64,000 bases of DNA from Chrysomallon squamiferum (lineage: Eukaryota > Animalia > Mollusca), in assembly GCA_012295275.1 (NCBI GenBank), contig CM022672.1, positions 744,001-808,000 on the forward strand, written 5' to 3'. The notes under the pieces were generated by a model. It was given only the letters and a program-made list of their open reading frames with translations. It had not been told where the DNA came from and ran no database searches. Below, in pieces: positions 653 through 37,709 of this stretch. A program made the translations under genes and the position numbers. How positions within the stretch are numbered: position 1 is the stretch's first letter; the number at the start of each line of letters is the position of its first letter.

Positions 653-2387
653 CTTAGGTTTACTCGATTAATCTTTTCTTCCTTCGTCTAATTCATTCCA
701 GAGTTTGACAACAGCAGCATATGAAAACAGTAATATTAACAGAATGTATTTAAAAAACTCACTACTAAACACTATTATATAAATATCTTAACAATATATA
801 AATACTAGAATGTTATGAAATGTAAATTTTAGTGTCACTTAGAATGTTTCAAAATGTAAATATAAGTGTACATAGAATGTTTTAACGTGCAAATATCAGT
901 GTTACTTAGAATATTTGAACAGGTAAATTCTATACATATATTAGTGTTACACTAAATAATTAAAATATAAATGTTAGTGTGCATAGAATATTTTAACATA
1001 TAAATATCAGTGCTATTTAAAATAGTTTAACATCTAAAAGGAAATTTTACCTAGAACGGGCAAATGGTGAGGGTAACACTGAGGACCTTGTCCAGGTTGA
1101 ATACACTGGACATCAACTTGACCCTGATGACCAACACAACACGTAGTTGTCTCCTCTGTCTCCCAGGCAACAGTGACTGCAGATTTGTAGGATTTGGAAT
1201 CGTGATCGATAATCCCTATCACTGTCCCTGTTTTACCTGGTCCACCTGTAAAGTATTTGTCCGTATTTCATTTCGTTATATTTAAAGTTTGGTTGGTTTC
1301 TAAATCAATCACACATGTAGATATAAAGGTAAAGAGACCCGATTCAGAATGGATAAGCCAAGCAGTATAATACTGATATCTTAAATAAGAGGAAAACGAA
1401 GGGAGATGAATTATAGCAAAGAATAGTCGATTAACGCCTGTTAATTTATTTGTTGCTGTACGTTTAAATCAAAACAGTTTATTTATATTCACCGTCTTTG
1501 TCACCCTGGTTTCTGTGTGTTCCACGAACAACCACAGCGCTAGGAAAGATACCGTAAGTTGGAATCTTAGGCGTGGTGAACCGTGAAGATACCTGACAGC
1601 TACACAAGAAAATGAAAATGAAAAACACTTTAAATAATAACATTAAACTTTAGAATTAACACCAAATTTTAAATATTAAAGCATTTGCTGTTTCAGTTAT
1701 TCTTTATCTTTATTTTGTTTTGTAATTTATTTACCCTTCTGATGTCGGCGTGTCGTATCGAACAAAGTCGTGTGAACGATCATGTTTTCCCATGAAGTAA
1801 CACAAAGAACACAAGTGTAAATCTTCACATTTCTTACACGACCATCTCATTCCTTTTATACCTTTCTCTTCACATCCATTACAAACTTTACCTTTGTGAC
1901 GAACTCCTGAAAACAGAAAAAGAATAATAATAATAATAAATTAAAAATAAAATAAAACTAATAAAATTAAATTAAATAGAATTACAAAATGAAGGGAGTA
2001 ATATGATAGACCTCTCCGAGAAATATTTACTTATCTTATTAATTAAAAGAAGTAATTAAATACGCAAGAAAAGAGGTAATATAAATAAGTAACACTACTA
2101 AATTTAAGAACATATTCCAGGCTAAAAAGTGAATAAAAGTAAATAAAATATGTGTAAAACTAAAATAATATGAAAAATGTTTCACCTGTTGGGCCATTGT
2201 CAAAAATTCGTAACTCAAACGTCTCTCGTTTTCCAGCTGAGCAAATTGTTACATTTCCGTTGTCCCAAATCACTGTACATGTTTTATCTTCATAAGACGT
2301 TACTGTTCCCAGATGACCTTCACCTCCATCTAGTTCTTCTTGTGACCAGTCAGGACCTCGCACAACGCGTAAACCAACAGCCACCAT
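653..2387 (-). pseudogene. MIB2-like: Mind bomb (MIB2-like) paralog copy A, 5' part (MZM region); continues beyond the left edge; probably disabled
   Basis: Phase-consistent GT-AG exons: 2387-2186 (MIB-HERC2, [14 protein letters not shown]), 1906-1735 (ZZ finger, CNGC..CKKC..LCSLC..H..H), 1599-1493 and 1245-1051 (second MIB-HERC2). The next exon, 720-653 (homolog of copy B 23455-23388), has its acceptor changed CAG>CAT and an in-frame TAA at 670-668. Family assignment is confident; pseudogene status is less so. Confidence 0.75.
780..1032. repeat. degenerate ~30-bp minisatellite (ttagaatgttttaacatataaatattagtg-like)
   Basis: Repeated ttagaat...aaatat.agtg motif; paralogous, longer array at 23500-23930 in copy B. 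Confidence 0.7.
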
Positions 2388-2676
2388 GTTATCTGATTAA
2401 GACTAAAATTGAAATAGAAAAAACTTTATTTGCTATAGACTAAATGTGTAGCTTTTTCACATGACAAAAATAAATATTTCTCTTTCTTTTGAAAATGATC
2501 ACCAAGGAAATCGAAAGAAAAACAGTCACTGGAAATTCTTGATAACAATAAAGTGTATGTAATAAACTGATAACAAATTCTTTTAAATAAATAAAGTGTA
2601 TATAAACATTTTTTTTTATACGAGAAGTGTTTGCATGTGAGACATATTTCCCTTTCTTCTGACAGTGATCAACAAG

Positions 2677-35400: not shown

Positions 35401-37709
35401 CACATTATTAACTAGTTCACTGTACAATCTATTATGATGACATAGGTACAATTCATCTTATGTTTTGGTATGAGAATCACTTATTTGTCCTTCAAAAATC
35501 TGAAAACTCTGAAATCTGAAATCTTTTTTTTTTTTTTTTTTCTGACCTTCTGAAATAGTGATATCACACCTTTTCAATGTGTTTTTTTTTGTTTGTTTTT
35601 TTATGTATAAGAATATTATATAAAAATGTTTGTCTCCTTCGGTTCCAATATTTAAATTGTGAAACCTGAAAAGCTTCCAGTCCCCACCATTTCGGATGAG
35701 AGATTCTCAAATTACAACAACAATTAGATGAGCCAGACAAAATGTTTGAAATCAAATATGTACAGTTATACTAGTTAAATTAATTATTTATTTGGTTAAT
35801 ACATAAAACGAAATTTACTGAAAAACTTTGTCAAACCTTCGCTGGATGTTCTCCTGCAGCTTCTGCTGGTATCTGCTCTTCTGAATCTATAAGTATTATA
35901 AAAATTCATTATAAAAACATCTTCATCTCAGATTAACATTTCAACAAACTTTTATTTACATAAACAGATATAGAGATTTCTACTTATTCAGAGCTGTTAA
36001 TTTTACCTAGAACGGGCAAATTGTGAAGGTAACACTGAGGTCCCTGTCCAGGTTGAATACACTGGACATCAACTTGGCCCTGATGACCAACGCGACACGT
36101 AGTTATCTCCCCTTCATCCCAGGCAACAGTCACTGCAGATCTGTAGGATTTGGAATCGTGGTTGATAATCCCTGTCACTCTCCCTGTTTTACCTGGGCCA
36201 CCTGTAAAGTGAATGTCTCTGTTTCAATTCTTTCTTTATTTATTTATTTATTTGTGGATGAATGGTGAATAATTAATACAGCTAATTAAGTTATTACCAC
36301 TAAAGAATTAATTGATACAAAACAAATGTTCAGACTTACCAGTTATCAACACCAGTGGTAACAAGATGATTTTTATAATTACGATTCCCCCCCCCCATTA
36401 TTAAGAGTTTTTGAATGTATGAAATAATATAAAAAATAAATGTAATTTTAACCGTCTTTGTCATCCTGGTCCCAGTTAACTCCACGAACGACGACTGCAC
36501 CAGGGAACAGTCCATGGGTTTTAATCAGTGTTGAAACGTTTCGTTCTGGCACCACCCTCCTGCATAGAAACATGTAAAATACTGATACATAAGTTTCAAG
36601 TACGACATTAATATTAGGAATAACACTGTGAAAGCAGTTATGATGATTTAGACTGTTGTTGTTTATTATGGTCAGCAGATATAAATTTATGTATGTTTAT
36701 TTGTTTCAGTTTTTATTTTCTGTTTCAGAAAAGTATATCCTCCGTTTTTTTTTTTTTTTTTTTTTTTTTTTTTTTTTTTTTTTTTTTTATCCGAAGAAAT
36801 CTTGTTATTTAGTAAAAATGTTGGGAATCACTACCCTGCGCTGTAATTTCACTTCATTTTACTTTGTTTGTTTTTGTTTATTTTATCAATGTTTTTGAAT
36901 GATGAGCATTAAAATTTGATCTTCTAAGGGAAAAATTGCCATTTTCTCCATTTTCACATCGATGTTCCTGCCGTGTTCATGCATTTCGATTCCTATATGT
37001 TGTTAATTGATTTTACTGTATAGCTCCACGGCTACAAGTTATTCAGTGACGTAACGAAATTACCATATTTAAACTAGTCTATATGTAGTATATATATATT
37101 ATAAGATTTGTAATACATAATGCTAGATGACTCATACACAACAGTTATATTTATATACCCTTCTGATGTCGCTGTGAGGTATCGAACAAAGTCGTGTGAA
37201 CGATCATGTTTTCCCATGAAGTAACACGAAGAACACAAATGTAAATCTTCACATTTTTACACGACCATCTCATTCCTATGATATCTTTCTCTCCACATCC
37301 ATCACAGTCTTTACCTTTATGACGAACTCCTGAAAACAGAAAAAAATAATTAATAATAAATAAAAATCATAAGCAGAGATCTATGACCATGCAATAAAGC
37401 GTAGCAAAATTAAATTCCATTACGACTTCTGTTATTAATAGAATAGAAAAAGTAGTAGTAGTAGTAGTAGTAGTAGTAGTAGTAGTAATAAAATAAGAAA
37501 TTGTCACCTATTGGGCCATTGTCTACAATTCGTAAGTCAAACTTGTTTTCTTTTCCAGCTGAGAAAATTTTTACGTTTCCGTTGTCCCAAACGACCGTAC
37601 AAGTTTTATCTTCTGCACAAGACGTTACTGTTCCCAGATGACCTTCACCTCCATCTAGGTTGCCTCCTGACCAGTCAGGACCTCGCACAACTCGTATCCC
37701 AACAGCCAT
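29495..37709 (-). CDS. MIB2-like: Mind bomb (MIB2-like) E3 ubiquitin ligase paralog copy C, about 750 aa if one frameshift is corrected, 16 coding exons
   Basis: Exons: 37709-37508, 37329-37159 (ZZ; 171 nt versus 172 in copies A and B), 36559-36453, 36201-36007, 35886-35837, 35062-34967 and 34657-34468 (single Mib repeat), 34139-33994, 33425-33274, 33033-32877, 32350-32196, 31830-31698, 30849-30747, 30387-30317, 30193-30027 (ankyrins), 29651-29495 (C3HC4 RING CCEC..PCQH..CSEC..CPLC). All are GT-AG and phase-consistent except a 1-nt loss in the T run at 37254-37258. Confidence 0.85.
31195..31690. repeat. ~26-bp AT-rich minisatellite (attatttattagtgtaagagataaaa)
   Basis: Many degenerate tandem units in a copy C intron. 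Confidence 0.8.
32508..32702. repeat. (ATTGGT/ATTAGT)n hexamer repeat
   Basis: Direct reading; it produces the spurious IGIGI and TNTNT ORFs. Confidence 0.9.
33650..33912. repeat. ~30-bp minisatellite (tttaacatgtaaattgtagatatggtttag)
   Basis: About 8 tandem units in a copy C intron. Confidence 0.85.

What the first reader, a model, noticed from the sequence alone, without database searches (positions are those of the whole stretch)
653..37709. Tandem array of fast-diverging Mind bomb-like E3 ligases: candidate immune-type substrate-receptor family
Seen: at least three head-to-tail paralogs with shared exon phases but different architectures. Copy C is MZM + 1 Mib repeat + a longer ankyrin stack + C3HC4 RING. 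Copy B is MZM + 2 Mib repeats + a shorter ankyrin stack + His-less RING. Copy A is lesioned. Amino-acid changes cluster in MIB-HERC2 loops ([51 protein letters not shown]), and all copies lack the Tyr of the usual YRxG motif. Established: canonical MIB1 and MIB2 are conserved low-copy genes with two Mib repeats and 3 or 2 RINGs; the MZM and REP regions bind substrates such as Notch-ligand tails, and vertebrate MIB1/2 also act in TBK1, RIPK1 and cFLIP signalling. Inference: this is a birth-and-death family diversifying its substrate-binding surface, as TRIM or NLR clusters do, rather than a Notch-pathway gene.
Basis: partly seen in the sequence, partly recalled or inferred. Interest (0 to 1): 0.8.

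Follow-up and report, generated by a model that had tools for sequence, protein, structure and literature searches.

The report
Snail Mind-bomb copies missing catalytic ring
Three neighbouring copies (two spliced in RNA, one broken) of a mollusc-only offshoot of the Mind bomb ubiquitin ligases lack the end module that carries the activity in human MIB1, so they likely work as binding adaptors or decoys rather than ordinary ligases; their binding heads are more alike than the rest of the gene, not less, and an immune role is untested.

Summary
The array is real: three minus-strand paralogs with shared exon phases. C and B are spliced in RNA contigs; A has a lost acceptor, a stop codon and neutral drift (omega about 1.1). 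They belong to a gastropod-bivalve clade (100/99) on the MIB2 side of the tree, nearest a Gigantopelta cluster. Birth-and-death is supported. A diversifying substrate surface is not: B and C show purifying selection (omega 0.26, 0.36), and MZM exons 1, 2 and 4 are far more alike between B and C (synonymous difference 0.19) than the ankyrin exons (0.65), which points to exon-wise gene conversion. The Tyr loss is inherited from the clade. New here: the clade lacks the coiled-coil/RING3 module on which MIB1 activity solely depends (Cao 2024) and keeps an inner-type RING (34 of 35); 25 of 35 members end in a CaaX-like box (0 of 86 canonical MIBs), but the window copies do not. Best reading: likely adaptor or decoy proteins. 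Immune evidence is circumstantial. The scan noted octopus Mind bomb offshoots lacking the active ring before, on other DNA.

The parts
29495..37709 (-). Copy C coding span, 16 exons, 750 aa: MZM, one REP, ankyrin stack, inner-type C3HC4 RING, no CaaX box
   Evidence: 11 listed exon joints in RNA contigs, 10 of them in both X8 and X9
39246..39265 (-). 3' end of the 5' untranslated exon of copy C (start not mapped)
   Evidence: loose end of RNA contigs at 37711 matches here, followed by GT
37253..37258 (-). 1-base gap in the ZZ exon of C as assembled
   Evidence: RNA contigs in X8 and X9 carry one extra base here; DNA run X3 lists none at depth 60, X1 has no cover
29495..29651 (-). RING exon of C
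   Evidence: Pfam zf-C3HC4_3 E 1.1e-08; 3' untranslated RNA to at least 29295
12598..25265 (-). Copy B coding span, 15 exons, 733 aa, open frame
   Evidence: spliced contigs in run X7 only, of 4 runs laid on 13700-20600
22137..23073 (-). B, first REP unit (two exons)
   Evidence: Pfam SH3_15
18913..20631 (-). B, second REP unit, made by internal tandem duplication
   Evidence: intron 5 vs intron 7 about 82% alike over 276 aligned bases, exon ends alike
20618..21819 (-). 44-base minisatellite (27.6 copies) grown from the REP acceptor and first codons
13358..13490 (-). B, degenerate ankyrin exon (36% identical to its C counterpart)
12598..12798 (-). B last exon: start of an ankyrin exon fused in frame to the RING exon (three ankyrin exons of C have no counterpart); RING has Cys-x2-Cys where C has Cys-x-His
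653..2387 (-). Copy A, five exons, runs off the window; pseudogene-like
668..722 (-). Lesions of A: exon-5 acceptor AT (721-722) and TAA (668-670)

Best explanation
These are tandem, birth-and-death copies of a mollusc-only Mind bomb offshoot that lacks the coiled-coil/RING3 module, and the two spliced copies likely act as target-binding adaptors or decoys rather than as stand-alone ubiquitin ligases. Steps: (shown) MZM-REP-ankyrin body with a single RING directly after the ankyrins and a tail of 2-7 residues; (shown) the clade sits on the MIB2 side of the tree and apart from MIB1; (from literature) in human MIB1 only ccRING3 transfers ubiquitin and dimerises; (inferred) the retained RING is the inner, non-catalytic type, so the protein would bind targets through MZM/REP and hold them on the ankyrin scaffold, competing with or feeding an active ligase; (inferred) most relatives do this at a membrane through a CaaX lipid anchor, which this vent-snail-type subclade has lost; (inferred) exon-wise gene conversion keeps MZM exons alike while ankyrin and RING parts drift, B fastest; (shown) A is decaying.
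For: Architecture; model of the Gigantopelta relative P0001 (pLDDT 86.7) matches MIB1 MZM-REP (4xi7, E 7e-31) and ankyrin (8v0e) structures and shows only a 14-residue helix before the RING. Tree: 34-row mollusc clade 100/99, window copies 100/99, sister to Gigantopelta cluster 100/100. RING type: 34 of 35 score higher on an inner-RING profile; Arg at the R996-equivalent in 2 of 35; C and B have Glu at the V965-equivalent. Cao et al. bioRxiv 10.1101/2024.03.01.582834 (abstract and passages): ANK-RING1-2 has no activity and is mostly monomeric; RING3 deletions are dominant negative in flies. Drosophila Mib2 has a major RING-independent role (PMC5345843, passages). Selection: omega A 1.11, B 0.26 (p 0.003), C 0.36 (p 0.004). 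Conversion: B-C synonymous differences 26 of 134 sites in exons 1, 2, 4 against 70 of 108 in ankyrin exons (p 8e-13), exon 3 between them at 0.60. Splicing.
Against: For the window's own RINGs the profile test is weak: C 17.7 vs 16.8 bits, B 7.0 vs 8.4 (the one exception). The RING is kept with its zinc ligands across gastropods and bivalves, and Pro at the P993-equivalent is kept in 33 of 35, which fits retained E2 contact. Cao tested one E2 only (UbcH5B). Canonical inner RING2 has the Val and Arg and is still inactive, so these residues do not decide activity. No target is known. Conversion is inferred from distance patterns only; no donor was identified and no genome was held. Trees used LG+G4 without mixture model and no AU test was run.
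Confidence: 0.55

Rival explanations
1. Active single-RING ligases: the retained RING transfers ubiquitin with another E2 or after clustering, so the family is a set of true E3s with altered targets.
For: Zinc ligands and Pro kept across the clade; Pfam zf-C3HC4_3 above cut-off for C; B's deletion fused exons in frame and kept the RING exon; other active ligases share this RING family (recalled).
Against: No coiled coil or terminal RING3; inner-type RINGs inactive in MIB1; hydrophobic V965-equivalent poorly kept; B has lost the His ligand.
Confidence: 0.3
2. One reading: immune substrate receptors diversifying their MZM surface under positive selection.
For: Multi-copy, lineage-specific clusters; six oyster genes annotated MIB2 are among 1,587 genes regulated after poly(I:C) priming or OsHV-1 challenge, mostly log2 0.5-1.2, one 3.0 (PMC7064767, supplement rows and passages); MIB-PARP fusions in oyster and Littorina.
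Against: Omega below 1 on B and C; MZM is the most similar region; variable sites fall in columns that vary across the family and in MIB2 too (p 1e-05 each); the oyster genes could not be mapped to this clade; no infection data for this species.
Confidence: 0.15
3. The clade is simply the molluscan MIB2 lineage (co-orthologs) that lost RING3 and expanded, keeping a RING-independent MIB2 role such as muscle maintenance.
For: Falls on the MIB2 side; mollusc MIB1 orthologs were retrieved but no named mollusc two-RING MIB2 among the listed hits or the 20 clusters looked up; RING-independent Mib2 function in flies. Compatible with the best explanation as to mechanism.
Against: Only the top 120 of 145 and of 403 hits were listed and the queries were clade members, so absence is weak; rapid turnover and a pseudogene do not fit a housekeeping role for these particular copies.
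Confidence: 0.25
4. Assembly artefact of haplotypes.
Against: B-C synonymous distance above 1 outside the MZM; A-B exon 1 only 86% alike; B- and C-specific DNA contigs occur in two studies at similar depth.
Confidence: 0.03

Closest known systems
MIB2 (Mind bomb 2 / Skeletrophin)
   Same: MZM (MIB-HERC2, ZZ, MIB-HERC2), REP, ankyrin stack, RING; same side of the tree
   Different: One inner-type RING, no coiled-coil/terminal RING; first-domain Trp and Tyr lost; multi-copy; relatives end in a CaaX-like box
MIB1 (PDB 4xi6/4xi7 MZM-REP, 8v0e ankyrin)
   Same: Fold of MZM-REP and ankyrin parts
   Different: Separate clade; MIB1 has three RINGs and molluscs keep a conserved MIB1
Gigantopelta aegis 'MIB2-like' cluster (XP_041370015.1 and neighbours; automatic annotation)
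   Same: Sister group (100/100); one REP, Cys for Tyr in the second MIB-HERC2, single RING, no CaaX box; 51% identical to C
   Different: Expanded independently; B has re-duplicated REP and lost ankyrin exons
Octopus Mind bomb ankyrin-RING-death-domain families (earlier scan notes, unreviewed)
   Same: Mollusc expansion of MIB-derived genes without the active terminal RING
   Different: Those lack MZM and end in a death domain; not compared by sequence here

Membership tests
Mind bomb family (broad) | MZM + REP + ankyrin + RING order | tested here: met
   for B and C
MIB1 orthologs | Groups with MIB1; three RINGs | tested here: not met
MIB2 orthologs (canonical) | Two RINGs, the last homologous to MIB1 RING3 with coiled coil | tested here: not met
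   definition
MIB2 orthologs (canonical) | Descent from the MIB2 gene | tested here: inconclusive
   MIB2 side of the tree, base unresolved, no named mollusc canonical MIB2 in the set
MIB1/MIB2 Notch-ligand ligases | Conserved MIB-HERC2 Trp and Tyr | tested here: not met
   Trp 21 of 21 and Tyr 20 of 21 in canonical first domain; absent in all three copies
MIB1/MIB2 Notch-ligand ligases | Binding of the ligand N-box; contact residues | not testable with these tools
   structure paper not held; no coordinates available
Active RING E3 ligase | Ubiquitin transfer from E2 | not testable with these tools
   sequence signs point against the MIB1-type mechanism
Mollusc single-RING MIB-like clade | Groups in the clade; single inner-type RING | tested here: met
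   (RING score narrow for C, reversed and weak for B)
Mollusc single-RING MIB-like clade | C-terminal CaaX-like box | tested here: not met
   B and C lack it; 25 of 35 examined members have Cys at -4
TRIM/NLR-like immune birth-and-death clusters | Tandem gain and loss of copies | tested here: met
TRIM/NLR-like immune birth-and-death clusters | Positive selection on the recognition surface | tested here: not met
   low power with three sequences
TRIM/NLR-like immune birth-and-death clusters | Induction by infection or immune-cell expression | tested here: inconclusive
   oyster genes named MIB2 regulated by poly(I:C), not mapped to this clade

The most novel reading that the evidence does not exclude
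Molluscs carry an undescribed third Mind bomb subfamily in which the catalytic coiled-coil/RING3 was swapped for a prenylation box: lipid-anchored pseudo-ligases that trap or present membrane targets in innate immunity or symbiont control. The vent-snail-type copies here are a freed, unanchored offshoot that recombines its binding head exon by exon.
Probability: 0.3. Interest if true: 0.75.

Novelty: new variant of a known kind. Interest (0 to 1): 0.52.

Why it matters
[quoted passage not shown] If the clade lacks the catalytic module and is lipid-anchored, those readings are wrong, and a testable class of Mind bomb pseudo-ligases exists. It would also give a conserved job to test for the inner RING, which is dispensable in human MIB1 assays.

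Tried and rejected
No genome is held, so no genome-wide count. Chimera idea (B's ankyrins from the other Gigantopelta subfamily, suggested by best hits) rejected: B and C are sisters in the ankyrin tree, B only has a longer branch (45 B-only vs 23 C-only changes, p 0.01). Positive selection sought by region and by branch: none above 1 with support. Lack of B cover in X6, X8, X9 and thin B cover are not taken as evidence of silence. High-depth contigs on MZM exons (551-724 against about 80-130 in X1) hint at more near-identical copies but are no copy number. McMillan 2015 could not be read, so changes were not mapped to the N-box groove. Putative transposon remains in B introns gave no Pfam hit and no terminal repeats. 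Gazave 2009 (PMC2770060) and PMC10970066, passages only, say nothing on this clade in what was shown. PMC4650145 passages name one oyster MIB2 as a predicted microRNA target; PMC7848083 supplement lists two oyster MIB2 proteins without significant change in the row with values. No complex prediction was run: no E2 or ligand was available.
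Full report
What is there. Six-frame reading, exon scans and splice-site checks give three minus-strand genes. C (coding 37709-29495) has 16 coding exons and 750 residues; B (25265-12598) has 15 exons and 733 residues with an open frame; A (2387-653) shows five exons before the window ends. All modelled introns of B and C are GT-AG. 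Exon phases agree through the MZM (1, 2, 1, 1, 0) and the ankyrin exons. Pfam finds MIB_HERC2, ZZ, SH3_15, ankyrin and zf-C3HC4_3 on single exons. A has AT at the exon-5 acceptor and a TAA at 668-670, and changes at residues otherwise nearly invariant in the family.

Expression and assembly. Eleven runs were listed, nine holding part of the C region. RNA contigs join C's exons at the modelled sites: 11 exon joints are listed, 10 in both X8 and X9, and one 1,917-base contig runs into the 3' untranslated region (7 further joints were not shown). C as assembled has a 1-base gap in the ZZ exon; both X9 contigs and two X8 contigs at that place carry an extra base, and one X9 contig of that depth also holds C's own exon 1, so the transcript is likely in frame. 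DNA run X3 lists no insertion at depth 60 and X1 has no cover there, so error versus allele is open. A 5' exon ends at 39246. B is spliced in run X7 (two joints, pieces with 0-2 differences), one of four runs laid on 13700-20600; X7 is labelled 'DNA?' but shows splice joints. B- and C-specific DNA contigs occur in two studies.

Relatives. The nearest proteins are Gigantopelta aegis 'MIB2-like' genes in two clusters, then Haliotis, Patella, Babylonia, Batillaria, Nucella, Pomacea, oysters, mussels and clams, so the organism is inferred to be a close relative of that vent snail. In a tree of MZM plus ankyrin core (60 rows chosen from those held, LG+G4) the three copies are one clade (100/99), sister to one Gigantopelta cluster (100/100), inside a 34-row gastropod-bivalve clade (100/99) on the MIB2 side. 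Conserved three-RING MIB1 was retrieved from several molluscs; no named mollusc two-RING MIB2 was (top 120 of 145 and of 403 hits listed; 20 clusters looked up). Separate MZM and ankyrin trees agree (three rows dropped from the second).

Selection. Pairwise dN/dS over the MZM is 0.34 for B-C (0.22-0.52), 0.52 for A-C and 0.63 for A-B. Branch-unique changes in exons 1, 2, 4: A 6 synonymous and 21 replacement (omega about 1.1), B 11 and 9 (0.26), C 16 and 18 (0.36); A differs from B+C (p 0.018). Of 225 MZM positions 62 vary among the copies, spread over all four exons, and they lie in columns that also vary in 27 other clade members and in 8 MIB2-type proteins. The Tyr loss is inherited: in the first MIB-HERC2 only 4 of 28 other clade members keep it (20 of 21 canonical do); in the second it is Cys in the three copies and 6 of 6 Gigantopelta rows but Tyr in 27 of 28 others. 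Three sequences cannot exclude selection at a few sites.

Conversion. B and C differ at 26 of 134 synonymous sites in exons 1, 2, 4 but at 0.60 in exon 3, which lies between them, 0.64 in REP and 0.65 in the ankyrin exons (Fisher p 1e-4, 3e-8, 8e-13). In protein, B-C identity is 85-88% in exons 1, 2, 4 against 53-61% to Gigantopelta, while in the ankyrins B-C is 49% and C-Gigantopelta 56-57%. B-C introns score little or no better than shuffles. A-B is patchy too (exon 1 86%, intron 1 93%, intron 3 98%). Exon-limited gene conversion among family members is the simplest reading; it is inferred, and no donor is known.

Architecture of B. The subclade has one REP (C and three Gigantopelta proteins). 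B's second REP came from an internal duplication with its introns, re-creating the two-repeat state. Its last exon fuses the start of an ankyrin exon to the RING exon, one ankyrin exon is degenerate, and its ankyrins evolve faster than C's.

The RING. Cao et al. (bioRxiv 10.1101/2024.03.01.582834; abstract, outline and passages seen, supplements closed) report that MIB1 activity and dimerisation rest on ccRING3, that ANK-RING1-2 is inactive with UbcH5B, and that MIB2's second RING is the RING3 homologue. The clade's single RING follows the ankyrins directly and has the Pro-Cys-x-His pattern of the inner RINGs. Against profiles from 9 MIB1 and 5 MIB2 proteins, 34 of 35 hand-picked RING-bearing members score higher on the inner type; C only narrowly, B weakly the other way. 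The model of P0001 shows no long helix around the RING. An earlier scan note on octopus offshoots gave the lead for this check.

The CaaX box. 25 of those 35 proteins have Cys four from the end (CVIM, CVVM, CSIM, CKVQ and the like), against 0 of 86 proteins with a canonical terminal RING; RING-less, probably truncated models were left out of the 35. More examples appeared later in Mytilus, Mya, Pinctada and Potamilus. That these are prenylation signals rests on recalled motif knowledge (K-Ras4B, N-Ras and prelamin A end so) and is untested. B, C and the sister Gigantopelta proteins lack the box.

Mechanism. Most likely B and C bind targets through MZM/REP, hold them on the ankyrin scaffold and do not transfer ubiquitin alone, acting as adaptors or competitors (0.55). 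An active single-RING ligase is the main rival (0.3). Fly Mib2 has a major RING-independent function (PMC5345843, passages). For immunity, six oyster genes named MIB2 are among 1,587 regulated genes after poly(I:C) or virus, mostly modestly (PMC7064767, supplement rows and passages); they could not be assigned to this clade.

Novelty. Searches for a mollusc Mind bomb expansion, or for Mind bomb with CaaX, found no describing paper in the held library; subscription journals and unseen supplements are not covered. The relatives are already auto-annotated as MIB2-like.

Noticed in passing
proteins P0008, P0013, P0142, P0025, P0411 and others: Most members of the mollusc single-RING Mind bomb clade end in a CaaX-like box (25 of 35; 0 of 86 canonical MIBs); one brittle-star MIB-like protein (P0058) does too.
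   Followed up: partly
proteins P0050, P0061: Oyster and Littorina MZM-REP-ankyrin proteins end in a PARP domain in place of the RINGs.
   Followed up: partly
proteins P0122, P0126, P0127, P0128; P0123; P0129, P0131, P0134: Other rearrangements: pulmonate snail proteins with two MZM modules, no ankyrins and one RING; a thrips protein with two MZM modules and an SH2 domain; bivalve proteins with doubled MZM-REP.
   Followed up: no
window 20618-21819 and 163-414: A 44-base minisatellite made of the REP exon's splice acceptor and first codons, in both B and A; each unit holds an AG followed shortly by GT.
   Followed up: partly
window 24390-24772 and 17659-19058: Short, deep contigs with 1-2 differences in DNA and RNA runs suggest further close paralogs of both the MZM exons and B's exons elsewhere in the genome.
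   Followed up: no
window 26900-28200: RNA contigs (one of 634 bases in X8) lie between B and C outside any modelled exon; repeat, untranslated exon of B or separate transcript not settled.
   Followed up: no
window 14900-16900 and 19400-20450: GC-richer inserts with broken frames in two introns of B, probably transposon remains; no Pfam hit.
   Followed up: partly
window 48202-49242 (+): Single long frame for a sphingolipid delta-4 desaturase (Pfam FA_desaturase and Lipid_DES).
   Followed up: no
window 58428-62274 (-): Multi-exon GTPase gene (MMR_HSR1 hit); looks like NOA1 (name recalled).
   Followed up: no
runs X6, X7: Labelled 'DNA?' but X7 shows splice joints and both hold about the exon share of words, so they are probably RNA.
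   Followed up: partly
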